Part shown: positions 40,368 through 62,700 of the stretch, one piece after another
Layout: every line of letters begins with the position of its first letter
How positions within the stretch are numbered: position 1 is the first letter of the stretch
Source of the DNA: Patescibacteria group bacterium
GTDB lineage: Bacteria > Patescibacteriota > Microgenomatia > 0-14-0-10-38-17
Direction of reading: 5' to 3'
DNA: 64,000 nt
NCBI GenBank assembly: GCA_050953885.1
Contig: JBMNNJ010000001.1
Span: forward strand, 399,437 to 463,436
Made by a program: the position numbers and the translations under genes
Notes under the pieces: model-generated
Told to the model about the DNA's origin: nothing
The model's database searches: none
Seen by the model: the letters and a program-made list of their open reading frames with translations, nothing else

Positions 40368-40369
40368 AA

Positions 40370-42385: not shown

Positions 42386-42394
42386 TATATTGAT

Positions 42395-43867: not shown

Positions 43868-43965
43868 CCTGTCATCCTGACGAAAGTCAGGATCTAATTG
43901 ATTCTGAATCAAGTTCAGAATGACACTAATCGTGGTCGTCATTCCTGAATTAAATTCAGGATGAC
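43868..43965. repeat. Family B hairpin repeats (GTCATCCTGAAYTTGATTCAGGATGAC and the TTCTGAATCAAGTTCAGAATGAC variant). This is a cluster of two or three units.
   Basis: Other copies: 34504-34527 (between the comEC halves), 38329-38402 (inside leuS), 39376-39460 and 45038-45170. Confidence 0.8.
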
Positions 43966-44115
43966 GCCATTCGTTCATTCGCGTTCATTCGCTTTTAATT
44001 CGCACATCCCAGCAATATAGCAATGTGTTTCCTAATTTCTTAATTTCAGCCCCGCCAGGGCGGGGCGAATTTCTTAATTTCTTTTTTAGCAATTCAACAA
44101 TATCGCAATTTAACC

Positions 44116-45126
44116 ATGAAACAACATTACCTTTTCCTTGCTTTTCTGGTTTTTCTTTCCCTCATCTTTCCTCATCCCACCCTTGCCTCAACCACCGTTC
44201 TCTGGCAGAAAATAAGCGAGGAAGGACCAAAAGAAACAATCGGATCTTCAAGCCAGGAAGTGGCTCTTTCTGCGCTGGTAGGCCAAGGGATTTTTACTAT
44301 TGAAGGCTACTCTTCGCCCGGGGCGACTATTTTTCTCACCAGCTCTCAAGGCAACTTAAGCCCACAAACCGTTAAGGCAGATAAAAACGGCTATTTTATT
44401 TTTAAAAATGTTCTCCTGCCGGTAAACCCCGGCGAGCTTTGGTTTCAAGCCCGCGACCAAAAGGGAAATTTTACTACTCCCTTGGCTATTGCCCAGCCGC
44501 CAAGGGAAGTAGAAAAAATTAAGGATGTTTTCCTTCCTCCCACCTTTTCCCAAACCAAAGGGCAAATAATTACCGGTGAAAATGCTTTTTTATGGGGATA
44601 TAGCCTGCCCGACGCTACCGCCGAAATTTATTTTTTCAAAACCCCCACAAAGAAATGGTGGCAAGCTTTTATCGGCCGACCCGCCCTTGCTTTTGAACCT
44701 CTTAAAATAGAAATTAAAACCGACCAAAACGGCTATTTCGAAGTAAATCTTCCTAATACTGCTCGGGGGCACTACCAAATTTTTGCCTCAAGTCAAAAAG
44801 AAGAAAATCCTTCTCCTAAAAGTAATACCCTCTCATTTCGGATTTTGGGAAAATGCGAAACCTTTTGGTTTTTTCTTAAGGCTTTATTCACACGATTAGC
44901 CTTGTTCCTAAAAAAGATTGTCGCTGATTTACTTTTTTGGATTACGATCGAGCTGATTATCTTAATTTATTTAATCTGGAAAATAAGACAAAAAAAAGAA
45001 TTGCCGCTAACCGTGTCACCACAACAAAACAAGGCCATCATTCCTGAATTAAATTCAGGACAGGCTCTGACGAATCCGCCAGCTGGCAGACAGGATCTAA
45101 CTGATTCTGAATCAAGTTCAGAATGA
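44116..45126 (+). CDS. Secreted protein with a C-terminal TM helix. Its last ~40 residues are encoded by family A and family B repeat elements.
   Basis: Signal peptide MKQHYLFLAFLVFLSLIFPHPTLAS. C-terminal TM helix (LLFWITIELIILIYLIW). The tail ...NPPAGRQDLTDSESSSE is translated from repeat copies at 45038-45125. Confidence 0.5.
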   Translation: MKQHYLFLAFLVFLSLIFPHPTLASTTVLWQKISEEGPKETIGSSSQEVALSALVGQGIFTIEGYSSPGATIFLTSSQGNLSPQTVKADKNGYFIFKNVLLPVNPGELWFQARDQKGNFTTPLAIAQPPREVEKIKDVFLPPTFSQTKGQIITGENAFLWGYSLPDATAEIYFFKTPTKKWWQAFIGRPALAFEPLKIEIKTDQNGYFEVNLPNTARGHYQIFASSQKEENPSPKSNTLSFRILGKCETFWFFLKALFTRLALFLKKIVADLLFWITIELIILIYLIWKIRQKKELPLTVSPQQNKAIIPELNSGQALTNPPAGRQDLTDSESSSE

Positions 45127-45240
45127 CGCCCGAGTTATTTTAACAAAATTCAGAATGACGATTGCGCTATCCCTAAATTTATCAGAAATAACGCCCACCA
45201 CAGAATGGCAACACCGAGGGTTACCACCAAAAGAGAAAGC

Positions 45241-45269
45241 TTGACAAAAAAACTTTATTAGTTTATGCT
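45241..45269 (+). promoter_or_regulatory. Sigma70-like promoter TTGACA-17 nt-TATGCT, placed so that the transcript of the 45277 gene would be leaderless or have a very short leader
   Basis: TTGACA at 45241-45246, a 17-nt spacer, then TATGCT at 45264-45269. The ATG is at 45277. Confidence 0.35.
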
Positions 45270-45276
45270 TTAGGAA

Positions 45277-45708
45277 ATGGCCGAAGAAAAAAAAAGGAGC
45301 TTGGCACCAGTTTTGGCGATCGCCATTGTTTTAATTTTAGTGGGGGTGGCGATGTTCTTATCCCAACAGGAAATTATTTTTCGGGGCCAAGCCTCTCCTT
45401 CCACCACCTATTCTTTGGCCAATTCCTACCTCTTTGGCTCTCCTCTTTCCGCCGCCGCTAATGGTCAGGAAAAAATTAAAGTCAGCGTTTTTCTCCTTAA
45501 CCAACAAGGATTAGGCGTGGATAAAAAACAAATTACCCTAAAAACCCAGCCAAGTGGGGGGTTAAACATCGAAGCCAGCCAACCCACCACCGATAAATCC
45601 GGCCAAGCTATTTTCTATCTTTCTTCCTCCACCCCGGGCAGTTTTGAAATAAGCGCCCAGGTAGAGGGACAGGAGTTCCCCCAAAAAATAAGCGTTCACT
45701 TCCGATAA
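45277..45708 (+). CDS. Membrane-anchored bacterial Ig-like (Big_1/invasin-like) domain protein
   Basis: TM anchor, then a Big_1-like pattern (KVSVFLLNQQGLGVDKKQITLKT...TDKSGQAIFYLSSSTPGSFEISAQV). An A9 homopolymer at 45287-45295 lies inside codons 4-7. Confidence 0.5.
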   Translation: MAEEKKRSLAPVLAIAIVLILVGVAMFLSQQEIIFRGQASPSTTYSLANSYLFGSPLSAAANGQEKIKVSVFLLNQQGLGVDKKQITLKTQPSGGLNIEASQPTTDKSGQAIFYLSSSTPGSFEISAQVEGQEFPQKISVHFR

Positions 45709-45762
45709 ACCACGGGACACGAAACAAGGAAAAACAAGGAGGATTGCTACATTGTTACGTTT

Positions 45763-45836
45763 GTGGTGGGCGTATTGCCATACGCCCGCCAACAAGAAAC
45801 AGACAACCAAGACGGGTTTATGCAATAAACCCCTAC
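45763..45836 (+). repeat. Family D REP-like 73-nt palindromic element. A second copy lies at 42455-42527, inside the RAYT remnant.
   Basis: g(t/g)ggggcgtattgccatacgcccgccaaca(g/a)gaaacag(g/a)ca(g/a)ccaa(t/g)acgggtttatgcaataaacccctac. Contains the perfect hairpin GGGCGTATtgccATACGCCC. Confidence 0.8.
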
Positions 45837-46129
45837 TTCTCATTTGCGTATTTTTAACAACATTACCTCTAACTACAGGCTTTTTCACGAAAAAATTATC
45901 CGTCTTCTTTCTTTCCCTAAGAATTCCCAATCTCTTCGTTTTTAATCCTTTAAAAACCTCCTTTTAAAAACGGGCAAATAAATGTTTTGGCTGATAAAAT
46001 GATAAAAAAAGAACTGTCGTTTTTTTTATCAATCTCACCTCATCACTGATAAAAAACCGCCCTTTGGCCCAAAAACTCTCTTTTGCTATAATATTTTTGT
46101 GAAAAAAACCAAAATAACAACCAAAAGGC

Positions 46130-46340
46130 GATAGTCTTATAATAAATTAGATTTTTTGGGGTAATTTTTCCCTTTTTTAAAAAAATTTTTTCTGAATTTT
46201 TTTTGGCAATTTTTCAAAAATTTTTCTGAAATTTTTTTATTTTCTTAAAACTTTTTATTATTTTTTTTCAATTTTTAATTTTTAATAAAAAAATTTAATA
46301 AATTTTAAAAAGTTTTAATAAATTTAAAAAAATCTTTCTT
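46130..46340. promoter_or_regulatory. Extremely AT-rich, phased A/T-tract low-complexity region upstream of the giant-protein locus. It may be a curved-DNA upstream region or the boundary of an acquired segment.
   Basis: Runs of aaaaatttttt / ttttttaaaa repeat for ~200 nt. No ORF. Sequence character changes sharply between the flanks. Confidence 0.4.
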
Positions 46341-46720
46341 AAGAACCCTACCCTCCTTCTTCTTTCCACTTCTTAATATTAAGATGTCTTAATTTACCTT
46401 TTGATATGCGGCTAAAATTCGCATGAAATTCATGTGAAAAAATACCCGCAAACTTCTGCGGTAATTACTAAAGCTATTTCTCCATTTTTAGGGCCTATCT
46501 AAAACCATCAAAATATATCAACTTTAAAAAATAGGGGACTTGACAAACATTTTATAATAGTGTACGCTTTTTATAATTCTGATAATTTATGATAATTTAA
46601 GGCTAAAATTTTATTACCGCAAAAATCATGAACAATCAAAAGGCATCAAACCAAATAGTAGACTTTCTTACTGTTTTTTTGATTTTTTTAATGAGTTTTA
46701 TTTGGCTGTTTATTTAACAT

Positions 46721-47203
46721 ATGCCCCAAACCCTGCTCTCCTCTTTCCGGCTTTATCTTAAAGCCCAAGGGAAAAAGGAAAACACCATCAGGAATTATCT
46801 TCAGGACATTGATCACTTTTTCTCTTGGCTTTCCTCCCAAATTAAAGATTCTTCACTGCAAGCGCTTCTTAACGACCCTAACAAAATAGCTCAAAACATA
46901 ACGGTTAAAAATTTAACTGTCTATCAGCGATTTTTGGAAAAAAATGAAGTTTCCCCTACCACTATCAACCGCCGCCTTTCCTCTCTTCGCCAATTGACAA
47001 AGTTTTTCCTTTCTCAAGGTTGGTTAAAAGAAGACCCAATAAAAAAATTAGCCAATATCTCCATTGAAAAAGAAACCGATAAAACTTCGCAAATTCTGGA
47101 AAAGTTTGCCAAAGCGCTTGAAGAAGAAGGGAAAAGCAAAACCACCATTAGAAATTATCTTTCTGACGTGAAGGGGTTTTTGGAATGGCACGAAAAAGAT
47201 TAA
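46721..47203 (+). CDS. Small protein made of tandem phage-integrase-N-terminal-like (SAM-like/core-binding) modules, with no catalytic domain
   Basis: Three ~35-aa modules of the pattern FxxYLxxxGxSxxTIxxYLxxxxxFxxW: SFRLYLKAQGKKENTIRNYLQDIDHFFSWL, VYQRFLEKNEVSPTTINRRLSSLRQLTKFF and LEKFAKALEEEGKSKTTIRNYLSDVKGFLEW. Confidence 0.5.
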   Translation: MPQTLLSSFRLYLKAQGKKENTIRNYLQDIDHFFSWLSSQIKDSSLQALLNDPNKIAQNITVKNLTVYQRFLEKNEVSPTTINRRLSSLRQLTKFFLSQGWLKEDPIKKLANISIEKETDKTSQILEKFAKALEEEGKSKTTIRNYLSDVKGFLEWHEKD

Positions 47204-47215
47204 AAAGTTAAAAAA

Positions 47216-47776
47216 ATGACCAACAGAATTATTTTGCCTCACGGCAATTATCGTCAGCTTAAATCGTTCCAAACTACAACAATTATTTACGATTTCACGA
47301 TGGCTTTTTGTAATCAATACCGGTCCCTCCTGACTTACAAGAACTACGAGCAAATGATCGGTGGTGCCAGATCGGGTAAGCAAAATATCGCCGAAGGCAG
47401 TCAGGTTTCTGGCACTTCTAAAAAAACAGAGATAAAACTTACCAGCGTTGCCCGTGGGTCACTTGAAGAATTGCTTCAAGATTGCCTTGATTTTCTTCGC
47501 CAAAACAATCTTGTTTTGTGGGATAAAAACGATCCCCGGGCTATTACCATCCGCAAGATTGCTTATAAGCCTGATCGGTCTTATGAGTCCTACAAGTCCT
47601 ATCTTAAAGACCCGGAAAGCGCCGTCAACTGCCTAATTTGCTTAATTCATCAGGCTAATTTTCTTCTTGACCGTCAGCTTGAAGCTTTAGAAAAAGATTT
47701 TTTAGAAAATGGCGGCTTCACTGAAAGGCTTTATCGGGAAAGAAGCGAAGCAAGAAAAAAGCAAAAATATGACTAA
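47216..47776 (+). CDS. Four-helix-bundle protein (23S rRNA intervening-sequence protein / Avd-like family), long form
   Basis: Family motifs NIAEGS...S and ARGSLEEL in the expected spacing. The stop overlaps the start of the giant gene (ATGACTAA). Confidence 0.55.
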   Translation: MTNRIILPHGNYRQLKSFQTTTIIYDFTMAFCNQYRSLLTYKNYEQMIGGARSGKQNIAEGSQVSGTSKKTEIKLTSVARGSLEELLQDCLDFLRQNNLVLWDKNDPRAITIRKIAYKPDRSYESYKSYLKDPESAVNCLICLIHQANFLLDRQLEALEKDFLENGGFTERLYRERSEARKKQKYD

Positions 47777-50700
47777 TAGGACTAATAGGACCAATAATAG
47801 GACCAACTCAGCGGGCTTTTTAGAACCATTGCAAATTCAGGCTTACCTGAAAAGGCTTAAAAAGGAAGGGGCTTCTCCGGCCACTCTTAAACGCAAGGAG
47901 GCGGCCTTAAAAAAATTCCAAAGCTGGCAGGGAAAAGAATACGGACCAAAGTATCCCTTGCCAAAAGGCGCCCCTAAGCCCAAAAAGATAATCTCTAAGA
48001 AGGGAATTTTCCCCAAGGCTTTTCCTCCTTTTTTAAGATATTTTTCTTTCCTAATCGGTTTGGTGCTTTTGGCTAGTTTAGGCTGGGGAGTTTATAGCCA
48101 ATTTTTTGCCCAGCCGAAAGAAACCCCCTCCATGGCCTTCCCTACTAACCCGCCGCTCTTAATTTCTTTTCAGGGTCAGCTTACCGATGATGACGGCACT
48201 CCGATTAATGCCACTATTCCTGCCATTTTCCGCCTTTATAATGTGGACGAGGGTGGTACCGCTCTTTGGGAAGAGCAAAAAAATGTCTCCACCGACCAGG
48301 ACGGCATTTTCAATACTTTCTTGGGTGACACCGCCACGCTGGATCCGGCCATTTTTCGCGACAATATGAATCTTTGGCTGGCAATTGAAATCGACAACGA
48401 CGGGGAAATGGAACCCCGTCAGCAAATTGCCACCGTGGGCTATGCTTTCAATTCCCGCTATCTTCAAGGTTATGAGGCCACCACAGCAGCTACCGCTAAC
48501 ACCATACCGGTTATTAATGCCGATGGCGATTTAATTTTAGCCTCCTCCTCTCCCGCCATTGAAGCCACCTCCGGCACCTTTGGCCTTAAAGGCGAAGCGA
48601 TTACTATTCAATCAACCGGCGGCACGGGCGGCGGGGATATTTTAATTCAGCCCGATGCCGATACCCAAGGACAGGTAATTATCTACTCGGCAACTACCGC
48701 CGACAATTCTTTTACCGTTCAAAATAGCAATATCACCACTGGCTCGCTAATTTATGGCGAGGCCGGTACTAGCGCTAGCGGTTATAACCTGCTAAAACTT
48801 ACCTCCGGAAGCCTTTTAACCGATAAGTTTGTGGTTGACTATGCCGGCAACACCGACATCGCCGGCAACTTAACCGTTGACAGTTCCGGATTTTTTGGCA
48901 ATAGTGTCGGCATCGGCACCACCAGCCCCGGGGCAACCTTGGATGTTAACGGCAACTTACGAATTGGCACCCTGACAACAGGCTCCACCGATACCGTCTT
49001 AACCCACTCCAACAATATTGTCCAGCAAAGAACAATTGATCCCCGGGTTTGGGGGGAAACCTTGGTAGACGGCAGCGGTAGTGCCGGCTATGTGGCCTAC
49101 TGGCAGGATGCCAATACCCTGACGGGGGAGCAATACCTCGCCACCTCAAGAGGTGGCACCGGCGATGACACCTCCTCTACCACTGGTGTCCCCTACATTT
49201 CTTCCGGCAACTGGCAATATGAATCAAGTTTAAATGTGAGCCGGGGCGGCACTGGGTTTTCTTCTTTAGCAGCTGGCTCCCTAATCTACGGTTCCGGCTC
49301 CTCCCCAATGAACGCTTTAGCAATTGGCACTACTAACTATGTTTTAACCTCCAATGGTTCTGCTCCTAACTGGTCACTAATTAGCCAGGCAAATATCAGT
49401 CCTGATTCTCTAGACTTTGACCAATTCCAGGATACCCTAGATCTGGATACTGACTTAGTCTTAAATCAAGCCGCTTACACCTGGACGCAAAACTTTACCG
49501 GAGCAACTACTACCGGCTTAACTTACAACGCTAATGCTTTAACTTCAGGAAAAGGGGTATATGTTTCTTCTACTTCAACTGGTTTAACAGGAAACTTGGC
49601 AGAAATAAGTCTGTCGGGAAACAATGCCGCCAACACCGGTAATGTTTTAAGACTGGCCCAAACTGGCGCCTTATCAGCGGCAATTCCTTTAATGGTGACC
49701 AATCTTGGCGCCGGCGCTTCCTTCAGGGTTAACGATGAAACGGGCGACAATGACAGCACCCCCTTTATTATTGATGCTTCCGGCGCTGTGGGGGTGGGAA
49801 CAGCCATGCCAAACGCCTCGGCAATTCTTGATTTAACTTCAACCGCCAAGGGCTTTCTTGCTCCAAGAATGACTACCAGCCAAAGAGATGCTATTGTTAA
49901 CCCCGCCGCCGGCCTTTTAATCTATAACACCACCACCAATCAATATAACATGTATAACGGCACGGGCTGGACTCTTATTGGCGGCGGAGATGTTTCTTGG
50001 AGTAGCTTAATTGACCCGACAGAAAATCTCTTGCTAAACCATGGGGCCTACACCACCACCTTTACCTGGGGAGCCTCAACCGGAGCTAATAACCTCTTTA
50101 CCCTTACCGATACGGCCAACAATACCGGCACGGGCTACCTTTTAAACCTTAATACCGCCACGGGGTCAAGTCTTAAACCTTTAAGGGTGGCTTCGGCCGG
50201 AGTTGAGGCTTTGGCCATCGATGCCGCCGGCAATGTGGGGATCGGGACAACGAGCCCGGGAGAAAAGTTGGATGTAGTTGGAGCAATCCGTTCCAGTGGA
50301 GTCGATGTATCATCTTTAAATCCAGGAACAAGCACCACCGGAGGTTTATATTTAGGTGCACATATGGGACACCTTATACTTGACTTAAGAAATAATGATT
50401 CCAATGACTCAATTGCTTTCCGATATTCAGCGGCAAACAACACAGTAGTAGATACTATTGGTCTAGTTATGAAAGGCGGAACTGGCAACGTCGGCATCGG
50501 CACCACCAGCCCCGGGGCAACCTTGGATGTTAACGGCAACTTACGAATTGGCACCCTGACAACAGGCTCCACCGATACCGTCTTAACCCACTCCAACAAT
50601 ATTGTCCAGCAAAGAACAATTGATCCCCGGGTTTGGGGGGAAACCTTGGTAGACGGCAGCGGTAGTGCCGGCTATGTGGCCTACTGGCAGGATGCCAATA

Positions 50701-53700
50701 CCCTGACGGGGGAGCAATACCTCGCCACCTCAAGAGGTGGCACCGGCGATGACACCTCCTCTACCACTGGTGTCCCCTACATTTCTTCCGGCAACTGGCA
50801 ATATGAATCAAGTTTAAATGTGAGCCGGGGCGGCACTGGGTTTTCTTCTTTAGCAGCTGGCTCCCTAATCTACGGTTCCGGCTCCTCCCCAATGAACGCT
50901 TTAGCAATTGGCACTACTAACTATGTTTTAACCTCCAATGGTTCTGCTCCTAACTGGTCACTAATTAGCCAGGCAAATATCAGTCCTGATTCTCTAGACT
51001 TTGACCAATTCCAGGATACCCTAGATCTGGATACTGACTTAGTCTTAAATCAAGCCGCTTACACCTGGACGCAAAACTTTACCGGAGCAACTACTACCGG
51101 CTTAACTTACAACGCTAATGCTTTAACTTCAGGAAAAGGGGTATATGTTTCTTCTACTTCAACTGGTTTAACAGGAAACTTGGCAGAAATAAGTCTGTCG
51201 GGAAACAATGCCGCCAACACCGGTAATGTTTTAAGACTGGCCCAAACTGGCGCCTTATCAGCGGCAATTCCTTTAATGGTGACCAATCTTGGCGCCGGCG
51301 CTTCCTTCAGGGTTAACGATGAAACGGGCGACAATGACAGCACCCCCTTTATTATTGATGCTTCCGGCGCTGTGGGGGTGGGAACAGCCATGCCAAACGC
51401 CTCGGCAATTCTTGATTTAACTTCAACCGCCAAGGGCTTTCTTGCTCCAAGAATGACTACCAGCCAAAGAGATGCTATTGTTAACCCCGCCGCCGGCCTT
51501 TTAATCTATAACACCACCACCAATCAATATAACATGTATAACGGCACGGGCTGGACTCTTATTGGCGGCGGAGATGTTTCTTGGAGTAGCTTAATTGACC
51601 CGACAGAAAATCTCTTGCTAAACCATGGGGCCTACACCACCACCTTTACCTGGGGAGCCTCAACCGGAGCTAATAACCTCTTTACCCTTACCGATACGGC
51701 CAACAATACCGGCACGGGCTACCTTTTAAACCTTAATACCGCCACGGGGTCAAGTCTTAAACCTTTAAGGGTGGCTTCGGCCGGAGTTGAGGCTTTGGCC
51801 ATCGATGCCGCCGGCAATGTGGGGATCGGGACAACGAGCCCGGGAGAAAAGTTGGATGTAGTTGGAGCAATCCGTTCCAGTGGAGTCGATGTATCATCTT
51901 TAAATCCAGGAACAAGCACCACCGGAGGTTTATATTTAGGTGCACATATGGGACACCTTATACTTGACTTAAGAAATAATGATTCCAATGACTCAATTGC
52001 TTTCCGATATTCAGCGGCAAACAACACAGTAGTAGATACTATTGGTCTAGTTATGAAAGGCGGAACTGGCAACGTCGGCATCGGCACCACCAGCCCCGGG
52101 GCAACCTTGGATGTTAACGGCAACTTACGAATTGGCACCCTGACAACAGGCTCCACCGATACCGTCTTAACCCACTCCAACAATATTGTCCAGCAAAGAA
52201 CAATTGATCCCCGGGTTTGGGGGGAAACCTTGGTAGACGGCAGCGGTAGTGCCGGCTATGTGGCCTACTGGCAGGATGCCAATACCCTGACGGGGGAGCA
52301 ATACCTCGCCACCTCAAGAGGTGGCACCGGCGATGACACCTCCTCTACCACTGGTGTCCCCTACATTTCTTCCGGCAACTGGCAATATGAATCAAGTTTA
52401 AATGTGAGCCGGGGCGGCACTGGGTTTTCTTCTTTAGCAGCTGGCTCCCTAATCTACGGTTCCGGCTCCTCCCCAATGAACGCTTTAGCAATTGGCACTA
52501 CTAACTATGTTTTAACCTCCAATGGTTCTGCTCCTAACTGGTCACTAATTAGCCAGGCAAATATCAGTCCTGATTCTCTAGACTTTGACCAATTCCAGGA
52601 TACCCTAGATCTGGATACTGACTTAGTCTTAAATCAAGCCGCTTACACCTGGACGCAAAACTTTACCGGAGCAACTACTACCGGCTTAACTTACAACGCT
52701 AATGCTTTAACTTCAGGAAAAGGGGTATATGTTTCTTCTACTTCAACTGGTTTAACAGGAAACTTGGCAGAAATAAGTCTGTCGGGAAACAATGCCGCCA
52801 ACACCGGTAATGTTTTAAGACTGGCCCAAACTGGCGCCTTATCAGCGGCAATTCCTTTAATGGTGACCAATCTTGGCGCCGGCGCTTCCTTCAGGGTTAA
52901 CGATGAAACGGGCGACAATGACAGCACCCCCTTTATTATTGATGCTTCCGGCGCTGTGGGGGTGGGAACAGCCATGCCAAACGCCTCGGCAATTCTTGAT
53001 TTAACTTCAACCGCCAAGGGCTTTCTTGCTCCAAGAATGACTACCAGCCAAAGAGATGCTATTGTTAACCCCGCCGCCGGCCTTTTAATCTATAACACCA
53101 CCACCAATCAATATAACATGTATAACGGCACGGGCTGGACTCTTATTGGCGGCGGAGATGTTTCTTGGAGTAGCTTAATTGACCCGACAGAAAATCTCTT
53201 GCTAAACCATGGGGCCTACACCACCACCTTTACCTGGGGAGCCTCAACCGGAGCTAATAACCTCTTTACCCTTACCGATACGGCCAACAATACCGGCACG
53301 GGCTACCTTTTAAACCTTAATACCGCCACGGGGTCAAGTCTTAAACCTTTAAGGGTGGCTTCGGCCGGAGTTGAGGCTTTGGCCATCGATGCCGCCGGCA
53401 ATGTGGGGATCGGGACAACGAGCCCGGGAGAAAAGTTGGATGTAGTTGGAGCAATCCGTTCCAGTGGAGTCGATGTATCATCTTTAAATCCAGGAACAAG
53501 CACCACCGGAGGTTTATATTTAGGTGCACATATGGGACACCTTATACTTGACTTAAGAAATAATGATTCCAATGACTCAATTGCTTTCCGATATTCAGCG
53601 GCAAACAACACAGTAGTAGATACTATTGGTCTAGTTATGAAAGGCGGAACTGGCAACGTCGGCATCGGCACCACCAGCCCCGGGGCAACCTTGGATGTTA

Positions 53701-56700
53701 ACGGCAACTTACGAATTGGCACCCTGACAACAGGCTCCACCGATACCGTCTTAACCCACTCCAACAATATTGTCCAGCAAAGAACAATTGATCCCCGGGT
53801 TTGGGGGGAAACCTTGGTAGACGGCAGCGGTAGTGCCGGCTATGTGGCCTACTGGCAGGATGCCAATACCCTGACGGGGGAGCAATACCTCGCCACCTCA
53901 AGAGGTGGCACCGGCGATGACACCTCCTCTACCACTGGTGTCCCCTACATTTCTTCCGGCAACTGGCAATATGAATCAAGTTTAAATGTGAGCCGGGGCG
54001 GCACTGGGTTTTCTTCTTTAGCAGCTGGCTCCCTAATCTACGGTTCCGGCTCCTCCCCAATGAACGCTTTAGCAATTGGCACTACTAACTATGTTTTAAC
54101 CTCCAATGGTTCTGCTCCTAACTGGTCACTAATTAGCCAGGCAAATATCAGTCCTGATTCTCTAGACTTTGACCAATTCCAGGATACCCTAGATCTGGAT
54201 ACTGACTTAGTCTTAAATCAAGCCGCTTACACCTGGACGCAAAACTTTACCGGAGCAACTACTACCGGCTTAACTTACAACGCTAATGCTTTAACTTCAG
54301 GAAAAGGGGTATATGTTTCTTCTACTTCAACTGGTTTAACAGGAAACTTGGCAGAAATAAGTCTGTCGGGAAACAATGCCGCCAACACCGGTAATGTTTT
54401 AAGACTGGCCCAAACTGGCGCCTTATCAGCGGCAATTCCTTTAATGGTGACCAATCTTGGCGCCGGCGCTTCCTTCAGGGTTAACGATGAAACGGGCGAC
54501 AATGACAGCACCCCCTTTATTATTGATGCTTCCGGCGCTGTGGGGGTGGGAACAGCCATGCCAAACGCCTCGGCAATTCTTGATTTAACTTCAACCGCCA
54601 AGGGCTTTCTTGCTCCAAGAATGACTACCAGCCAAAGAGATGCTATTGTTAACCCCGCCGCCGGCCTTTTAATCTATAACACCACCACCAATCAATATAA
54701 CATGTATAACGGCACGGGCTGGACTCTTATTGGCGGCGGAGATGTTTCTTGGAGTAGCTTAATTGACCCGACAGAAAATCTCTTGCTAAACCATGGGGCC
54801 TACACCACCACCTTTACCTGGGGAGCCTCAACCGGAGCTAATAACCTCTTTACCCTTACCGATACGGCCAACAATACCGGCACGGGCTACCTTTTAAACC
54901 TTAATACCGCCACGGGGTCAAGTCTTAAACCTTTAAGGGTGGCTTCGGCCGGAGTTGAGGCTTTGGCCATCGATGCCGCCGGCAATGTGGGGATCGGGAC
55001 AACGAGCCCGGGAGAAAAGTTGGATGTAGTTGGAGCAATCCGTTCCAGTGGAGTCGATGTATCATCTTTAAATCCAGGAACAAGCACCACCGGAGGTTTA
55101 TATTTAGGTGCACATATGGGACACCTTATACTTGACTTAAGAAATAATGATTCCAATGACTCAATTGCTTTCCGATATTCAGCGGCAAACAACACAGTAG
55201 TAGATACTATTGGTCTAGTTATGAAAGGCGGAACTGGCAACGTCGGCATCGGCACCACCAGCCCCGGGGCAACCTTGGATGTTAACGGCAACTTACGAAT
55301 TGGCACCCTGACAACAGGCTCCACCGATACCGTCTTAACCCACTCCAACAATATTGTCCAGCAAAGAACAATTGATCCCCGGGTTTGGGGGGAAACCTTG
55401 GTAGACGGCAGCGGTAGTGCCGGCTATGTGGCCTACTGGCAGGATGCCAATACCCTGACGGGGGAGCAATACCTCGCCACCTCAAGAGGTGGCACCGGCG
55501 ATGACACCTCCTCTACCACTGGTGTCCCCTACATTTCTTCCGGCAACTGGCAATATGAATCAAGTTTAAATGTGAGCCGGGGCGGCACTGGGTTTTCTTC
55601 TTTAGCAGCTGGCTCCCTAATCTACGGTTCCGGCTCCTCCCCAATGAACGCTTTAGCAATTGGCACTACTAACTATGTTTTAACCTCCAATGGTTCTGCT
55701 CCTAACTGGTCACTAATTAGCCAGGCAAATATCAGTCCTGATTCTCTAGACTTTGACCAATTCCAGGATACCCTAGATCTGGATACTGACTTAGTCTTAA
55801 ATCAAGCCGCTTACACCTGGACGCAAAACTTTACCGGAGCAACTACTACCGGCTTAACTTACAACGCTAATGCTTTAACTTCAGGAAAAGGGGTATATGT
55901 TTCTTCTACTTCAACTGGTTTAACAGGAAACTTGGCAGAAATAAGTCTGTCGGGAAACAATGCCGCCAACACCGGTAATGTTTTAAGACTGGCCCAAACT
56001 GGCGCCTTATCAGCGGCAATTCCTTTAATGGTGACCAATCTTGGCGCCGGCGCTTCCTTCAGGGTTAACGATGAAACGGGCGACAATGACAGCACCCCCT
56101 TTATTATTGATGCTTCCGGCGCTGTGGGGGTGGGAACAGCCATGCCAAACGCCTCGGCAATTCTTGATTTAACTTCAACCGCCAAGGGCTTTCTTGCTCC
56201 AAGAATGACTACCAGCCAAAGAGATGCTATTGTTAACCCCGCCGCCGGCCTTTTAATCTATAACACCACCACCAATCAATATAACATGTATAACGGCACG
56301 GGCTGGACTCTTATTGGCGGCGGAGATGTTTCTTGGAGTAGCTTAATTGACCCGACAGAAAATCTCTTGCTAAACCATGGGGCCTACACCACCACCTTTA
56401 CCTGGGGAGCCTCAACCGGAGCTAATAACCTCTTTACCCTTACCGATACGGCCAACAATACCGGCACGGGCTACCTTTTAAACCTTAATACCGCCACGGG
56501 GTCAAGTCTTAAACCTTTAAGGGTGGCTTCGGCCGGAGTTGAGGCTTTGGCCATCGATGCCGCCGGCAATGTGGGAATTGGGACGACGAGTCCGGGGGCA
56601 AAGCTACATGTAAATGCTGGTGCAGCACAATTGACAATGGAAAGAGATGAAACCCACATTAACACATGGGATTTCAGAATCACTCAGGAGGCGGGCATCT

Positions 56701-59700
56701 CTGCAAACTCCCTATACCTGAGAGCGTCAGAAAATACAGCCGACTTTGGAATAAGGGCAGCTAATTCTGGGAACGTCCAGTTCATTTTGAAGGGCCCAAC
56801 AGGCAACGTCGGCATCGGGACGACGGCGCCGGGGGCGAAGCTTGATGTTAACGGAACGGGTAGGTTTGCCACTTCCGTGTCTTCGCCTCTTTTTCAAGGT
56901 GATACCGGGGCGGTTACCTTTGGCAATGCTTCCTATGCCACCACCATTGCCGGTTCAGGATTAACCATCTCTCCTACTGCCTGGACAGCCACTCCTACCA
57001 TATCAGGGCTTATTACCGCTACTTTAGGATTAACCGCCAATGGAGCCTTAACCGCCAACAGCACCTTCACTTTAGGAGACGGCGCTGATGCCGGTTCGGT
57101 TAATACCTCAAGTTGGGATATCTCCACCACTGGCGTCGCCTCGGGATTTACCGGCCTTACTTCCTCCGGCACGATCACCTTCTCTTCTCTGGCCGCCAAC
57201 CGACTGGTGACCACCACCACAGGAGGAGAACTAACCACCAGCGCCGAGGGGACTGTCGGCCAGCCCTTACTTTCCGGAGGGACATCCTCCCCCAACTGGG
57301 GGACTCTTGGTCTGGTTTATGGCGGTACCAATGCCGATCTTTCCGGGGTGGCCCAAGGAGGGCTAATTTACAAGGAAACTTCCGCCTTAGCCGGCACCGG
57401 GGCCTTAACGGGAATTCTTCAGGGAAATAACGCCAGCGCCCCCACCGCCATCACCGGCACCGCCAATTATCTGCCCAAATGGTCCTCAACCGCCCCTTAC
57501 CTCACCACCGCTTCCCAAATTTTCGACAGCGGCGCTAATGTCGGCATTGGCAATAGCAATCCTCAAGCCCTGCTTCATGTGGGCGCCGGCGGCACGCCCA
57601 ATTATGCTTCAAGCGGCGATGTTTATATCCAAAACGATCTCGAAGTGGACGGCACCATTTACGGCGCGCTGGATATTACCGACGCCACTTTTGACTTTTT
57701 GGAAGTTAAGCGGGCGGCCACTTTCTCCGCCCAAATCGCCTCGGATATTCCCATTACCGTTAAAAACACCGGCGGCAATGAGGTGGCGCGGTTCACCAAC
57801 GAGGGCAAGCTAAGACTTGGTTCTGCCGGCGCGCCCACCGACACTTTAGATATTGATGGCGACGCTGATATTTCCGGCAACTTGGATGTGGGCAATGGCC
57901 TTGATGTTTTAGGCGCCAACTTCACCGTCGGCGGCGCTAACTTTACCGTTAGCCAAGCCGGCACGGTGACCGGCGGCACCTACAACGGCCAAACTATTTC
58001 CTCCACTGCCAGCTTTACCGGCACTCTTAGCGTCGCTTCAACCTTCAACGCTAATAGCAATGTGGGCTTGGGAAACGAAGCCACCGACACCATCAACGCC
58101 GCCGGGCAATTTGTCTCCGGCCTTATCCCCCAAACAAACAGTTATAACCTTGGCTCCCCCACTAACCACTGGGGCGCTTTGTACGTTGATTCCATTTACG
58201 GCGGTCAGGTGGGCGAATTTGACTTTCTTAAGGCCCGGGGCGCCACCCTCTCGGCCGAAATCCCCACCGACAAAACCTTGGTTTTGGAAGGCCTTGCTTC
58301 CGGCCATACCGCCAATTTAATTGAAGCCAACGCCAACGGCGCCACCGCTCTCACCCTCTCCCCGGCCGGCAATTTAACCTTAGGAGGAACGATAACTTTA
58401 CCCAACGGTAACACCTTAACCGGCGTGGCTTCTTATATTCAATTTAACAATGGCATAAGCGTTGGCGGGGGAACCACCTATCGGCTCACCTCCACTGGCG
58501 ACGCATATCTTAATAATCTCTACACCGGCGGAACGCAAAGGCTTTCTTCAACCGGCGCCCTTGCCAACATTACCGACTACAGCCAATCCTCCGGCAATTT
58601 CGCCATTTCGGGAACTGGCACTTTCTCTACCGCCACCGGCAATATCTCCCTAAATGGAGCCACCACCGTAGCCGACGGCAAATCTTTCACCGCCAACGGG
58701 CCGGTGACCTTGGGCGACGGGGGCGATGCGGTGGCCATTAACAGCAACATTTGGGATATTACCTCGGCCGGCGTCGCTTCCGGCTTAACCCAATTAACCG
58801 TTGACAACCTCCAGCTTGACGGCAACACTCTTTCTTCAACCACGGACAACATTACTCTTGACGCCGCCGCTTACTTGGTGATTGCCGACCAAATTGCCTC
58901 AAGCTTAATTCCTTCCGCCACCAACACTTATGATTTGGGCTCCCCGGAGAACTACTGGGACGATGCTTACATCAACACTTTAACCGCTAATTCGCTAAAT
59001 TTTGATTTTATCGCCGCCCGCGGCGCCACTTTTTCGGCCGAAATCCCCACCGACAAAACCTTGGTTCTTAATGCCGCTACCGGCCAAACCGCCAATCTTT
59101 TGGAAATCAATTCCGCCCCCGGCGCCAGCGGCGACTTAATGGTGGTCACCGGCGGCGGCAATGTCGGCATTGGCAACAGCAATCCGGGAACATATAAATT
59201 AGATGTGGCGGGCACGGGAAGATTTAATTCCACCGCTAATCCGGGGTTAACGGTTGGCAACGGCGCTATTGGCTATTTAAAAATTGGCGGCTCAACTATT
59301 TATGATAACAACAGCGACTTAACTTTAGACTCCGATACTGCCTTGGTGATTTTAGCCGATGATTTGCAAATTAACGGCAATGATATTTATGATTCCGGCG
59401 CAAACCAGAGAATCAATTTGGGCGCCACCACCACTTTATACAACACCACCACCATCCTTTCGGGCACCACCGCCTTAACCGCCTCTTCCTTGGCAACCTT
59501 TACCACCGCCTCCTCTTTGGCAATGCCCGCCACCACCTCTTTAACCTTAGGCGGTTCAGCAACCATCTACGGCGGCACGACGGCTTCAGGAACACTAACT
59601 CTTCAGTCAACTTCAAACGCCACCAAAGGCAATATCCTAATTAATCCTTCTGGCGGCAATGTCGGCATCGGGACGACGGGGCCGGGGGCGAAATTATCTA

Positions 59701-62700
59701 TTAATGGCTCGCCAGCGATAGAGTTTGCTTCTTGCGGGACTTCTTACGGAGGTTGTTATATCAAGGAAGGATGGGGCCCTGAATTATATTCCAATACATC
59801 GCAACCTTTTCAAGTTTTAAATACTTCACTTTTGGTTGGATATGACCAAACAGATTCAACCGCCAGAGGAAGCGGTAATTTACTCGTAAGCGGCAATGTC
59901 GGCATCGGGACGACGGGGCCGAACACTGAACTAAGTTTAAATCACGGTTATATAAATTTTGAGCCCTCGCTAACCTCGTGGCTAAAAACTGGAGGAGAAG
60001 GAATACTTATGTGGAACTCTAATGATATTGAGTGGCTCGAATCAACATACGAGAGCGGATACGGCCACAGATTATATTCCATCGATCCTGGGGCAGGTGC
60101 AGTTACACACCTTCGGCTAGCCGCAAGAAATAACTCTGCCTCGTGGACAGATATGGTTACTTTTGTTTCTAACGGCAACGTCGGCATCGGGACGACGGGG
60201 CCACAACATAAATTACATATTTATACGACAACCGCACAAGAGGGAATAATTATTAACGCTGGCACTTATCCAGAAATCAGATTTGAAGAGGCTGGAACAG
60301 TAAGAGGCTATCTTAGCGTTGCTGGAAGCGCAGGAGGATATGGAACAGGCACATTAGCTGATTCTATGATACTTCGCGCTGAAGGTAATATGCATCTTAT
60401 TACGAATGCAGGGACTGTGGTACAAACATTAACCAGTGGCGGCAATGTGGGCATTGGGACAACAACTCCGGGGGCAAGACTGGATGTTAACGGCAATTTA
60501 AAAATCGCCACCCTGACAACCGGCGCCACCAATACGGTTTTAACCCACAGCGGCAATATTGTCCAGCAAAGAACCATTGATTCCCGAGTTTGGGGATCAG
60601 CGTTGGTTGATTATTCCGGCACCTCGGCTAACTACATTCCCAAAATGCTTGACGCCGACACGATTACCAATTCCCTAATTTACGAAGCCGCCAGCAGCCG
60701 CCGCATCGGCATTAGCACCACCAGCCCGGGTTCAAAATTAACCGTTGCCGGCGGCGCTTCCTATTTTGGCGCCCTGCCTGCCCCCACCGGAGTAGTGGCC
60801 ACTCCCACCTCGGGAGGCGGCTTAGTGGCGGGAACTTACTATTATGTGGTCAACGCCTTTGACAGCAACAACCTTTCCTCAAACAAATCAAGCCAGGTTT
60901 CCTGCACGGTTGATGGCTCTACCACCACCGCCTGCCAAATTTCCTGGGTGGCCGTTCCCGGCGCCACCAACTACCGCGTTTACGGCAGAGCCAGCAACGC
61001 CCAAAACCAATACTGGCAAACCACTTCTCTCTACTACACCGACACCGGCGCCGCCGGCGCCAGCGACACGCCGCCGGGACCAATCTCCGCTTTCTTTACC
61101 GGCAATATAAAAGCGGAACGCTTTGCGGATTCGGCTAACGACACCTACTACCTTGATCCGGCCTATGCCACTCTTTCCCTCACCACCGCCGGAGCGGCGG
61201 GCATCGGCTACTCGGCCGGCCAGATGAGCGGTGCCACCGCCAAGCTGGCCGTTGACGGCAATGTGGGAATTGGGACGACGAGTCCGGGGGCAAAGCTACA
61301 TGTAAATGCTGGTGCAGCACAATTGACAATGGAAAGAGATGAAACCCACATTAACACATGGGATTTCAGAATCACTCAGGAGGCGGGCATCTCTGCAAAC
61401 TCCCTATACCTGAGAGCGTCAGAAAATACAGCCGACTTTGGAATAAGGGCAGCTAATTCTGGGAACGTCCAGTTCATTTTGAAGGGCCCAACAGGCAACG
61501 TCGGCATCGGGACAGTTTTCGGCGAAGCAGATACTACAGGAAAATTGAACGTAAGAAAAGATAGCACAGCAGATGGAATGATTAGCGATGTTCTTACGTT
61601 GCGCAATCATTGGCATACCGTTACTAATATAGGAACTGGAATTGCATTGAGATTTAAACAAGGATCAACCAGCGAAACCGGAAAGCTTGTTGATATTGGT
61701 TCAATTGCTGAAAGTGGGTGGAGCAACGCAGTCGGTTTCTTTGTTAAGACTGGTGGTACTGAAAGGTTAAGAATAAGTAACGGCGGCAACGTCGGCATCG
61801 GGACAGCGAGTCCAAGTTACCCACTACACGTATATAAAAATGCAGGTGACTGGACGGCGCGCTTCCAAAACACTTCGGGATCCATAGATATTGGACCAGC
61901 CAATGGTAGTGGAGCCCACATTTATACAGACCTAAGCCAATTTTTCTTTAATCAACCCATTACCCTCACGGGCACCAGCAGTATTTCTTCTTATTCCACG
62001 AATAATCTCTATCTTAAAACAGGTACGCAGGCTAACACAAGGATGACAATTCTTGCTAGTAATGGCAATGTCGGCATCGGGACGACGGGGCCTGTTCAAA
62101 AATTGCATGTTGAAGGCAATTGTGTAACGGGAGATACAAAGTTAGCAATTTTTGAGGATCACAGTTCACAGTTCACAGTTCACAGCAATGCTCCTTCAGA
62201 GCAGATCACAGATCACAGATCACAGTTCACGGAAATACAAATAAAGGATATAAAATCAGGAACAAAAGTATATTCGCTAAATCAAGAAACTGGGAAACTA
62301 GAACCTGCTAGGATCAACAAACTTCTTGACATGGGAACAAAGCCTGTATTTAAATTAACTACAGAGGGTGGAAAAGAGATTCGCACCACTGGCAACCACC
62401 CATATCTTGCCCAACTATCTTATGAACAATACCAGCAAAGAGTTCAACTTCGAGAAACTGGAAGTTTGGAAGAAGAGTATGGCCTTAGTCAAGGCGATCT
62501 ATCAGTTGCTCGAGAGTTTTCCCAAACACGAGAGGTATGGTCTAGTGGATCAACTTCGCCGAGCAGCAACCTCAATTCTTCTGAATATCGCCGAGGGGAA
62601 CGGGAGGTACAGCCACAAGGAATTTATCCAATTTCTCTATCAGGCCAGGGGCAGTCTCTACGAGGTGGTGGCTTGTCTCAAACTAACTCAAGAGCTGGGT

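What the first reader, a model, noticed from the sequence alone, without database searches (positions are those of the whole stretch)
48906..56575. Five 100%-identical 1,584-bp tandem repeats (4.84 units) inside the giant gene
The ORF track shows the same antisense ORFs recurring with an exact 1,584-bp period and identical sequences. 1,584 is a multiple of 3, so the frame is kept. Perfect nucleotide identity over ~7.7 kb means either a very recent expansion that is actively homogenised, or an assembly artefact from repeat expansion or collapse. Such a repeat would be a copy-number-variable region and a way to vary fibre length.
Basis: seen in the sequence. Interest (0 to 1): 0.75.

Follow-up and report, generated by a model that had tools for sequence, protein, structure and literature searches.

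The report
Perfect repeats in giant fibre gene
A 6,351-residue, membrane-anchored, phage-tail-fibre-like surface protein of an ultra-small Patescibacteria (CPR) bacterium contains 4.84 nucleotide-identical copies of a 1,584-bp (528-residue) module; this is most likely a real, recombination-prone "length-tuning" array of a kind already known from other bacterial surface proteins, but its exact copy number cannot be verified without reads.

Summary
Window 48906-56575 is an in-frame tandem array with a 1,584-bp period, 4.84 copies and no mismatch. The gene is NCBI MGI6776100.1, a 6,351-aa "tail fiber domain-containing protein" on a 597,657-bp Patescibacteria MAG contig.

Domain order: N-terminal integrase-SAM-like segment, one TM helix, about 5,500 aa of fibre modules delimited by 20 copies of a GNVGIGTTxPGxKLxV motif, a canonical mini-intein, a Peptidase_S74 chaperone domain.

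An independent JGI contig is 100% identical and stops exactly one unit plus 127 nt into the array. The head-to-tail junction is therefore real, but that assembler could not resolve the copy number. A relative about 94% identical carries only the 0.84-copy form. Either copy number varies, or that contig is a collapsed path.

Near-identical long arrays (99.0-99.8% DNA identity) recur in related giant fibre proteins.

Both array borders lie on the recurring motif. Relatives differ by gain, loss or reordering of whole modules at that motif.

Best reading: a Periscope-protein-like stalk array in a trimeric S74 fibre, kept uniform by unequal recombination. The exact copy number and the perfect identity need read-level checks.

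Novelty: new member of a known kind. Interest is moderate.

The parts
48906..56575 (+). Tandem array: 4.84 copies of a 1,584-bp (528-aa) unit, 100% identical. Copies start at 48906, 50490, 52074, 53658 and 55242; the last is 1,334 nt long.
   Evidence: Period-1584 identity run; the repeat finder D1; BLASTP of the unit against the gene.
47769..64000 (+). In-window part of the giant gene. The ATG at 47769 overlaps the stop of the upstream gene; NCBI starts the gene at ATG 47709. The gene runs 921 codons past the window end. Full product: 6,351 aa, MGI6776100.1.
   Evidence: Open frame. The window translation equals P0255 residues 21-5430 exactly.
47823..47927 (+). N-terminal, presumably cytoplasmic, segment resembling a phage-integrase SAM-like domain.
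   Evidence: Pfam PF02899, 19.3 bits, below the 22.3 cut-off. Homologues of the N-terminus carry PF02899/PF13102.
48030..48095 (+). Single predicted transmembrane helix (FLRYFSFLIGLVLLASLGWGVY), preceded by a K-rich stretch. Implied topology: N-in, C-out.
   Evidence: Highest Kyte-Doolittle 19-mer in the 5,410 aa (1.76); sequence. The topology is an inference.
48909..50237 (+). Module X of copy 1 (443 aa, from motif m1 to motif m2). It repeats every 1,584 nt.
   Evidence: Motif map.
49758..49985 (+). Most conserved part of the unit (unit aa 285-360). It corresponds to the PF26696 'PTL_trimer' domain of the homologues and is the only part modelled with confidence. It repeats every 1,584 nt, giving five copies.
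   Evidence: Coverage histogram of 120 homologues; precomputed Pfam labels; AF2 pLDDT 79-96.
50238..50492 (+). Module Y of copy 1 (85 aa, from motif m2 to the next m1). It is present only in the four complete copies and absent from relative L016.
   Evidence: Motif map; L016 comparison.
56564..56821 (+). 258-nt module starting 12 nt before the array's right end. It is 100% identical to 61256-61513.
   Evidence: the repeat finder D8. Absent at this position in L016.
61256..61513 (+). Second copy of the 258-nt module.
   Evidence: the repeat finder D8.
60437..60610 (+). Diverged partial copy of the unit's first 174 nt (78% nt identity; 73% aa identity over 74 aa).
   Evidence: the repeat finder D6; BLASTP.
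62121..63092 (+). Canonical mini-intein (324 aa): Cys1, a TGNH block B, a C-terminal ...GILAHN followed by +1 Thr, and a low-complexity insert where an endonuclease would sit. The fibre motif flanks it on both sides.
   Evidence: Pfam Intein_splicing, 72.6 bits; TIGR01443/01445; PDB DnaB mini-intein 4O1R, E = 2.7e-20; coordinates.
46721..47203 (+). Upstream co-oriented gene: 160-aa protein made of integrase SAM-like domains. It is also present next to the orthologous gene in a Shapirobacteria MAG.
   Evidence: Pfam; synteny in L026.
47216..47776 (+). Upstream co-oriented gene: 186-aa four-helix-bundle protein resembling the 23S rRNA-IVP family. Its stop overlaps the giant gene's ATG.
   Evidence: Pfam PF05635, 26.4 bits, below the cut-off; sequence.

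Best explanation
The array is a real, in-frame tandem amplification inside a giant cell-surface fibre gene of a Patescibacteria (Microgenomates/Woesebacteria-like) bacterium. The protein is anchored by one N-terminal TM helix. Its roughly 5,500-aa ectodomain is a chain of phage-tail-fibre-like modules, each starting with the motif GNVGIGTTxPGxKLxV. A C-terminal Peptidase_S74 intramolecular-chaperone domain probably trimerises it and then cleaves itself off. The repeated unit consists of a 443-aa module X, which contains a PTL_trimer-type domain that sits at the tip of many short fibre proteins, plus an 85-aa spacer module Y. The array lies in the membrane-proximal half of the fibre. Each extra unit would therefore push the distal modules further from the cell and add one more X domain. 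By extrapolation from the Bd2133 fibre (370 aa spanning about 14-15 nm), each unit would add roughly 20 nm. The 1,584-bp perfect homology makes the array a substrate for unequal homologous recombination or replication slippage. That process both changes copy number in whole-unit steps, down to the 0.84-copy form seen in a relative, and keeps the copies identical (concerted evolution). The array borders and other differences between strains lie on the motif-coding DNA, which gives 10-32 nt of exact identity between modules; this points to motif-guided module gain, loss and shuffling. Shown: the array, its frame, the domain content, an independently assembled head-to-tail junction, a relative with the 0.84-copy path, and similar arrays in relatives. 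Inferred: trimeric state, topology, nanometre figures, recombination mechanism, and a selective value for length or valency variation.
For: Array and frame. Identity of the gene and source (MGI6776100.1, 6,351 aa, 597,657-bp Patescibacteria contig; relatives at >=90% identity are named Woesebacteria/Shapirobacteria). Independent junction: JGI Ga0591961_000493 (74,908 bp) is 100% identical to window 36721-50616 and ends one unit plus 127 nt into the array; its last 127 nt equal window 48906-49032. 0.84-copy relative L016, with X joined to the post-array sequence through a hybrid motif. Purifying selection between strains (dN/dS 0.11-0.19; dS(X) = 0.127) against zero differences within the array. 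Fibre nature: Peptidase_S74, 36.8 bits against a cut-off of 22; PHROG tail-fibre families; Bd2133 motif match; Bdello_MAT_N weak hit. Motif map with both borders on motifs. Mosaic relative L008. Arrays in relatives: protein level; DNA level, 99.0-99.8% over 2.3-12 copies in contigs named 'contig_N'. TM helix. Concept of highly identical repeats leading to intragenic recombination and length variation: PMC8201768. MAT/S74 fibre biology: PMC10769870.
Against: No reads or depth were available, so 4.84 copies and 100% identity rest on one deposited assembly whose sequencing technology I could not establish. L016 has k-mer coverage of about 1 and many small indels, and could be a collapsed graph path rather than a true short allele. 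Arrays in relatives are 99.0-99.8% identical, not 100%, so perfect identity over 7.7 kb is at the extreme and could partly reflect consensus or polishing. The AF2 monomer model of the unit is poor (mean pLDDT 57) and the fold search found nothing significant, so the rod-like trimeric structure is not demonstrated. Y has no detectable source elsewhere in the gene, so how the unit originated is unresolved. No independent contig of the same strain covers the right border.
Confidence: 0.6

Rival explanations
1. The tandem repeat exists, but its copy number and its perfect identity are products of the assembler. One route is a de Bruijn graph loop (shared edge = unit positions 1-1334, back edge = positions 1335-1584) traversed a coverage-estimated number of times, which makes all copies identical by construction. 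Another is long-read consensus or short-read polishing that erased small differences between copies.
For: The array has exactly the form A(BA)x4 expected from a simple loop. A short-read-type assembly of the same strain stopped after one traversal plus 127 nt. Comparable arrays in relatives are 99.0-99.8% identical rather than 100%. A 258-nt perfect duplicate abuts the right border, so this region is hard to assemble. That some assemblers estimate loop counts from coverage is my own knowledge and was not tested here.
Against: The source contig is 597,657 bp. It runs through this array and through other repeats at which the short-read JGI and Logan assemblies break, which fits long reads that would span 7.7 kb. 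PGAP calls an intact 6,351-aa CDS. Similar multi-copy arrays occur in other assemblies of related genes.
Confidence: 0.22
2. The array is real but is a very recent, selectively neutral or transient segmental amplification in one clonal population. It would not be a maintained length-variation device.
For: There are zero differences among copies, against dS = 0.13 to the nearest relative. The only close relative has no repeat. No population data show several copy numbers coexisting.
Against: Near-identical arrays with different units and periods recur in many members of this fibre superfamily, which argues for a recurrent and tolerated property. The frame is preserved, the unit boundaries coincide with module boundaries, and the gene is under purifying selection. 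The same strain, at 100% identity, occurs in at least three samples.
Confidence: 0.15
3. The whole repeat is a chimeric or mis-joined artefact, and the real genome has a single copy.
For: L016 shows a repeat-free path.
Against: An independent assembly from JGI sample 3300060679 contains the junction from the end of Y to the start of X, with 127 nt of the next copy. Module Y exists only in the context of the repeat, yet it is in frame and has a fibre-like sequence.
Confidence: 0.03

Closest known systems
Periscope Proteins (SasG/Aap, Rib/alpha-C, Sgo_0707 SHIRT, Esp, CdrA; Whelan et al. 2021, PMC8201768)
   Same: A cell-anchored surface protein with a tandem array of highly identical DNA repeats encoding whole folded modules. 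The array lies between the anchor and the distal part of the protein. High DNA identity is proposed to drive intragenic recombination and repeat-number (length) variation. Long reads are needed to count the repeats.
   Different: The unit here is far longer (528 aa, multi-domain) than the roughly 80-130-aa Ig-like, G5-E or SHIRT units. The scaffold is a phage-tail-fibre-like, presumably trimeric, S74-chaperoned fibre rather than a monomeric rod. The anchor is an N-terminal TM helix rather than a C-terminal LPXTG or an outer-membrane anchor. The host is an uncultured CPR bacterium. Repeat-number variation is only suggested by one low-coverage relative.
Bdellovibrio MAT (mosaic adhesive trimer) fibres, S74 subfamily (Caulton et al. 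2024, PMC10769870; PDB 8OND)
   Same: Bacterial, non-phage, tail-fibre-like surface fibres. They share the 'GN(V/L)GIGTxxPxxKLxV' repeat motif, a Peptidase_S74 chaperone domain and a mosaic or chimeric module architecture. The proposed role is recognition of other cells by a bacterium that lives on other cells.
   Different: MAT proteins are about 1,000 aa and have an invariant N-terminal MAT domain. Here Bdello_MAT_N scores only 27.7 bits against a cut-off of 60, and the N-terminus is instead a SAM-like segment plus a TM helix. No perfect multi-kb tandem array or intein has been described in MATs. This protein is six times longer and has about 680 aa after the S74 domain.
Phage tail fibres and tailspikes with a C-terminal intramolecular chaperone (Peptidase_S74: endosialidase K1F, T5 L-shaped fibre)
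   Same: An S74 domain above Pfam's threshold; PHROG tail-fibre hits; modular, recombination-shuffled receptor-binding proteins.
   Different: This gene is chromosomal and sits among housekeeping genes (LeuRS, ArgRS, MreB, L10), not in a prophage. The protein is membrane-anchored and 6,351 aa long.
Giant repeat adhesins with DNA-identical repeats (e.g. Marinomonas MpIBP region II, LapA/SiiE-type RTX adhesins) - from my own knowledge, not tested here
   Same: Very large surface proteins in which a long run of near-identical repeats acts as an extender.
   Different: Those use roughly 100-aa BIg-like repeats, type 1 secretion and outer-membrane retention. No sequence relationship was detected here.
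Omnitrophota giant proteins (West-Roberts et al. preprint, 10.1101/2023.11.21.568195)
   Same: Giant membrane-anchored extracellular proteins of ultra-small, host-dependent bacteria. Repeats fragment their assemblies.
   Different: The domain content differs (HEAT, dockerin, TSP3) and so does the size (>30,000 aa). No homology is claimed, although a 3.3-kb contig with an 88%-identical N-terminus is binned in an 'Omnitrophota' MAG. I suspect, untested, that this contig is mis-binned.

Membership tests
Periscope Proteins | Protein displayed on and anchored to the cell surface | tested here: inconclusive
   There is one strong hydrophobic helix at aa 88-109, after a K-rich segment, and the rest of the protein is fibre-like. 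Topology and surface display are inferred, not shown.
Periscope Proteins | Tandem array of long repeats that are highly identical at the DNA level and encode whole domains | tested here: met
   4.84 x 1,584 nt at 100% identity, in frame. The unit boundaries coincide with the module-delimiting motif.
Periscope Proteins | Repeat number varies between closely related strains | tested here: inconclusive
   L016 (about 94% nt identity) shows 0.84 copy against 4.84 here, but it is a roughly 1x-coverage short-read contig and may be collapsed. All other relatives' contigs break at or before the array.
Periscope Proteins | The repeat region forms an elongated rod that projects a distal functional domain | not testable with these tools
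   The AF2 monomer model is poor (mean pLDDT 57) and no trimer modelling or experiment was possible. The array is membrane-proximal (aa 380-2936 of about 5,600 mature residues), which fits the model.
Bdellovibrio MAT fibre family | Conserved N-terminal MAT domain (NCBIfam NF053851 Bdello_MAT_N) | tested here: not met
   27.7 bits against a curated cut-off of 60, covering only aa 128-191.
Bdellovibrio MAT fibre family | Beta-helical trimeric fibre repeats | tested here: inconclusive
   Motif-level match to Bd2133 (8OND), E = 0.004. Foldseek hit to 8OND at E = 0.05, not significant.
Bdellovibrio MAT fibre family | C-terminal S74 chaperone/protease (S74 subfamily) or an alternative tip | tested here: met
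   PF13884, 36.8 bits against a cut-off of 22, at P0255 aa ~5618-5671. This lies outside the window.
Peptidase_S74 tail-fibre/tailspike proteins | S74 intramolecular chaperone domain above Pfam's gathering score | tested here: met
   NCBI names the protein 'tail fiber domain-containing protein'.
Peptidase_S74 tail-fibre/tailspike proteins | Autocleavage at the conserved Ser, and trimerisation | not testable with these tools
   The sequence '...YSSSRKLKSNITDL' begins the match. No activity test was possible.
Peptidase_S74 tail-fibre/tailspike proteins | Part of a phage or prophage virion module | tested here: not met
   The neighbours are housekeeping and cell-envelope genes. There was no relative in IMG/VR.
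Inteins (class 1), for the element noticed in the same gene | Cys/Ser1, block B TxxH, C-terminal HN, and a +1 Cys/Ser/Thr | tested here: met
   C1 (CVTGDT), TTGNHPY...GILAHN|T. Pfam and TIGRFAM hits above their cut-offs. DnaB mini-intein 4O1R, E = 2.7e-20. Splicing activity was not tested.

The most novel reading that the evidence does not exclude
Microgenomates/CPR epibionts carry a family of TM-anchored, intein-containing, S74-chaperoned trimeric 'tail fibres' several hundred nanometres long. In this family the DNA encoding the GNVGIGTTxPGxKLxV motif would act as a built-in recombination cassette boundary. Whole modules, including multi-domain 528-aa units that carry tip-type PTL_trimer domains, would be amplified, deleted and swapped at these boundaries. 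Fibre length, valency and probably host specificity would then be tuned on very short time-scales. This would be a trimeric, multi-domain version of the Periscope principle combined with phage-like mosaicism. The cytoplasmic DNA-binding-like N-terminus (SAM-like here, MerR-HTH in a relative) might couple the fibre to signalling.
Probability: 0.3. Interest if true: 0.6.

Novelty: new member of a known kind. Interest (0 to 1): 0.4.

Why it matters
CPR/Patescibacteria depend on attaching to host cells, yet their attachment machinery is largely unknown. Its genes are also systematically broken in short-read MAGs: nearly every homologue of this gene's N-terminus in public data is a 'partial' protein at a contig end. 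This locus gives a complete example of such a fibre. It also shows concretely how the fibre could vary: in 1,584-bp steps within the array, and by whole modules at motif boundaries. If copy number really varies, the array is a ready marker for strain tracking and a candidate determinant of host reach. For genome scanning, it illustrates that perfect multi-kb repeats in MAGs need read-level validation before copy numbers are interpreted.

Tried and rejected
1. Recovering the array from other assemblies. Look-ups of the neighbouring genes returned the JGI contig that ends inside the array, plus short Logan/ENA/JGI contigs. The NCBI 597-kb contig is not in the position index, and the giant protein itself is 'not on record' there.

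2. Scans of genome contigs and metagenome contigs with the unique N-terminus found only short contigs that end at or before the array. The viral-contig scan with the unit found nothing.

3. A homologue search with the post-array region, meant to find a same-strain contig crossing the right border, gave no close hit; the best was 59-78% identity over <=26% of the query.

4. Local Pfam and NCBIfam scans of the unit gave no family. PF26696 'PTL_trimer' is known only from precomputed labels on homologues, and no paper mentions it.

5. The AF2 model of the unit (38-sequence alignment) had mean pLDDT 57. Foldseek against the PDB gave no hit at E <= 1e-3. The weak hits were mostly trimeric fibres, alongside unrelated proteins, and I do not rely on them.

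6. Membership in the Bdellovibrio MAT family was considered and rejected, because the N-terminal domain is below the cut-off.

7. A prophage origin was considered and rejected, because the surrounding genes are housekeeping genes.

8. A diversity-generating retroelement was considered only because of weak Mtd fold hits. I did not test this: the window was not searched for a reverse transcriptase or for template/variable repeats.

9. The sequencing technology of the source MAG could not be established from any tool. Literature searches on inteins in CPR fibres found nothing relevant.

Full report
**Observation**

Comparing the window with itself at an offset of 1,584 nt gives one uninterrupted run of 6,086 matches, from 48906 to 54991. 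The array therefore spans 48906-56575: 7,670 nt, 4.84 copies, no mismatch. The repeat finder places five copies in register at 100%. The + strand frame is open from 47706 to the end of the window. 1,584 = 3 x 528, so the repeat is in frame. BLASTP of the 528-aa unit against the translated gene finds four complete copies at 100%, plus a fifth that follows the unit to residue 457.

**What the gene is**

An exact-sequence look-up shows that the housekeeping proteins of the window are NCBI MGI67760xx.1, 'MAG... [Patescibacteria group bacterium]', on a contig of 597,657 bp. Cluster mates at >=90% identity are named Candidatus Woesebacteria or Shapirobacteria.

The giant protein was recovered as a hidden cluster member. 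It is MGI6776100.1, 'tail fiber domain-containing protein', 6,351 aa. The window translation from ATG 47769 equals residues 21-5430 of that protein exactly, and 921 residues lie beyond the window.

The domain order is as follows:
- A weak integrase-SAM-like segment.
- One transmembrane helix at aa 88-109, the strongest hydrophobic segment in the protein.
- A long Thr/Gly/Ser/Ala/Asn-rich ectodomain in which the motif GNVGIGTTxPGxKLxV occurs 20 times and delimits modules of 79-94 aa and larger ones.
- A canonical mini-intein at 62121-63092.
- Outside the window, a Peptidase_S74 intramolecular-chaperone domain above Pfam's threshold, followed by about 680 partly low-complexity residues.

The motif aligns to the crystallised Bdellovibrio Bd2133 MAT fibre (8OND, E = 0.004). 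PHROG tail-fibre families match. NCBIfam Bdello_MAT_N matches weakly, below its cut-off.

The neighbours are ordinary chromosomal genes, including LeuRS, ArgRS, MreB, L10, ComEC and PBP2. This is therefore a cellular fibre, not a prophage fibre.

**Anatomy of the repeat**

Each unit is a 443-aa module X followed by an 85-aa module Y, both starting with the motif. The part of X that is conserved in thousands of other proteins is unit aa 285-360. Homologues carry the precomputed label PF26696 'PTL_trimer' there. In many 350-650-aa proteins it sits at the extreme C-terminus. It is also the only part of the AF2 monomer model with high confidence. Each unit thus resembles a small fibre segment with a tip-type domain, and the array strings five of them together.

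Both borders sit on the motif. The left border is the first base of m1 (GN|VGIGTTSPG). The right border lies 12 nt into m2 of the fifth copy; beyond it the motif continues at the protein level but with different codons.

Immediately right of the array lies a 258-nt module (56564-56821) that is 100% identical to 61256-61513. This is a second very recent duplication or conversion event at a motif boundary.

**Real or artefact?**

Three lines of evidence bear on this.

1. JGI contig Ga0591961_000493 (74,908 bp, sample 3300060679) is 100% identical to window 36721-50616. It ends exactly one unit plus 127 nt into the array, and its last 127 nt repeat the first 127 nt of the unit. An independent assembly therefore contains the head-to-tail junction, so there are at least 1.84 copies. 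The 127-nt overlap looks like the signature of a k = 127 de Bruijn assembler meeting a loop; that is my inference. The tandem repeat is real, but that assembly could not count the copies.

2. The deposited contig is 597,657 bp. It runs through this array and through other repeats where the short-read assemblies break. That fits long reads, but I could not establish the technology.

3. The phenomenon recurs. A full HMMER scan with the unit finds 45,772 related proteins, 417 of them at E <= 1e-30, including many of 2,000-7,400 aa. Several carry near-identical arrays: 272 aa x 7.5 and 180 aa x 9.6 (99.4%), 158 aa x 12 (99.1%), 250 aa x 5.2, 122 aa x 7.4, 88 aa x 10, and 813 aa x 1.65. At the DNA level, two of these, in ENA contigs named 'contig_N', are 99.0-99.8% identical over 2.3-12 copies.

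The exact copy number of 4.84 and the 100% identity remain unverified. The array has the form A(BA)x4 that a coverage-guided loop traversal would produce, and polishing can homogenise copies. I give that rival explanation about 0.2.

**Copy number and module order in relatives**

L016 (ENA ERZ2647914, about 94% nt identity, k-mer coverage about 1) has the N-terminus, then unit positions 1 to about 1370, and then runs straight into the post-array sequence. The join is a hybrid motif whose 5' half resembles m2 and whose 3' half resembles the motif at 56811. L016 lacks both Y and the 258-nt module. This is exactly the 0.84-copy state that whole-unit deletions from an n.84 array would reach. It could also be a collapsed graph path.

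L008 (88% aa identity in the N-terminus) is collinear up to window 48910, which is the array's left border. It then continues with modules that lie elsewhere in this gene.

Other relatives' contigs stop at the border or in a motif.

Motif-coding DNA copies share 7-32 nt of exact identity. That is enough for rare recombination, whereas the 1,584-nt units provide ideal substrates.

Between the window and L016 the gene is under purifying selection: dN/dS is 0.16 for the N-terminus, 0.19 for X and 0.11 for the post-array region. dS for X is 0.127, whereas the five copies differ at no site. The copies are therefore either much younger than the strain split or continuously homogenised.

**Mechanism**

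This is my best estimate, with 0.6 confidence overall.

The protein is inserted N-in, C-out. The intein splices out. The S74 domain nucleates trimerisation from the C-terminal side and cleaves itself off, as in endosialidase-type fibres and the S74 MATs (PMC10769870). This leaves a TM-anchored fibre.

The array occupies the membrane-proximal half (aa 380-2936 of about 5,600). It therefore acts as a stalk extender that also multiplies the X domain. Scaling from Bd2133 (370 aa spanning about 14-15 nm), one unit would be roughly 20 nm and the whole fibre on the order of 200 nm. This is an extrapolation only.

Unequal recombination or slippage between units changes the length in 528-aa steps and keeps the copies identical. 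This is the logic of Periscope Proteins (PMC8201768).

**Comparison and novelty**

The locus meets the sequence-level criteria for a Periscope Protein: a surface anchor (inferred) and long DNA-identical repeats that encode whole modules. Strain-to-strain variation is only suggested, and rod structure is untested.

It works like a Bdellovibrio S74-type MAT fibre but fails that family's N-terminal-domain test, so I do not file it there. It is not a phage gene.

I rate it a new member of a known kind. Its unusual features are a 528-aa multi-domain unit, a presumably trimeric S74 scaffold, an N-terminal TM anchor, an intein, and a CPR host.

Interest is 0.4. The repeat itself is ordinary for surface proteins. 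The value lies in having a complete CPR fibre gene with a concrete, testable variation mechanism, and in a cautionary example for interpreting repeats in MAGs.

Noticed in passing
window 62121-63092: A canonical class-1 mini-intein lies inside the giant fibre gene. It has Cys1, a TGNH block B, ...GILAHN followed by Thr+1, and is DnaB-mini-intein-like. Low-complexity inserts replace the endonuclease. The fibre motif flanks it on both sides, so it looks like one more 'module'. Other family members also carry PF14890 (P0273, P0429-P0431). Inteins in non-housekeeping surface proteins are unusual.
   Followed up: partly
window 56564-56821 and 61256-61513: A 258-nt pair, 100% identical and 4.7 kb apart, inside the gene. 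The first copy begins 12 nt before the array's right end and is absent at that position in relative L016. This suggests a second very recent module duplication or conversion at a motif boundary, or a point of assembly ambiguity.
   Followed up: partly
window 48896-63727 (20 sites, listed): The motif GNVGIGTTxPGxKLxV recurs 20 times and delimits every module. Its DNA copies share 7-32 nt of exact identity, apart from copies that belong to the array or to the 258-nt duplicate. Short-read contigs of relatives often end in or just after it.
   Followed up: yes
beyond the window: P0255 aa ~5618-6351: A Peptidase_S74 domain is followed by an unusually long extension of about 680 aa. The extension contains low-complexity stretches (QDDGGG, HPDESQD, DPDFRQDD) that resemble translations of a repeated DNA element also seen at window 43869-43944, 39381-39456 and 45072-45147.
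   Followed up: no
window 47769-48095; relative P0307 (L027 3001-10614): The cytoplasmic N-termini of these TM-anchored giant fibres look like DNA-binding domains: integrase SAM-like here, MerR/HTH_17 in P0307. A stand-alone SAM-like paralogue sits just upstream (46721-47203) and is syntenic in a Shapirobacteria MAG (L026). Coupling to signalling or regulation is possible but purely speculative.
   Followed up: no
whole window 1-64000: GC skew is negative (about -0.03 to -0.33, near zero only in the last 2 kb) in every 2-kb bin, whichever strand the genes are on. The giant gene has 49-54% GC over most of its length (44% in the last 2 kb of the window), against 38-45% for the flanks.
   Followed up: no
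window 1714-1763, 3900-3949, 15407-15456, 37606-37655, 38181-38230, 39299-39348, 39514-39563 and others: Families of short intergenic repeats. One is a palindrome, TCCGCCAGCTGGCGGA, flanked by CAAAAYT-type heptamer runs (about 8 copies). Another is an 'ATTCGTGTCTATTCGTTTCC...TTAATTCGTGT' element (5 copies). These may be terminator- or promoter-associated, or MITE-like.
   Followed up: no
window 42395-43735, 42459-42527 and 45768-45836: This ORF starts with an IS200/RayT-like remnant ('MPNHLH'). It contains a 69-nt element (GGGCGTATTGCCATACGCCC...) that is repeated at 94% identity 3.3 kb downstream. Several independent JGI contigs of the same strain break in this region.
   Followed up: no
window 46165-46333: An extremely AT-rich, low-complexity tract with overlapping short tandem repeats (periods 10-34 nt) lies about 0.4 kb upstream of the three-gene cluster that ends in the giant gene.
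   Followed up: no
L008 (JAQURC010000018.1): A 3.3-kb contig encoding an 88%-identical N-terminus of this Patescibacteria protein is binned in a GTDB genome labelled 'Candidatus Omnitrophota bacterium STD1_64'. I suspect a binning error; this was not tested.
   Followed up: no
L028 1-1905 and 2211-19838: In a related locus, the same 816-nt repeat unit occurs both in the giant gene and in the gene immediately upstream. Arrays can therefore extend across adjacent fibre genes.
   Followed up: no
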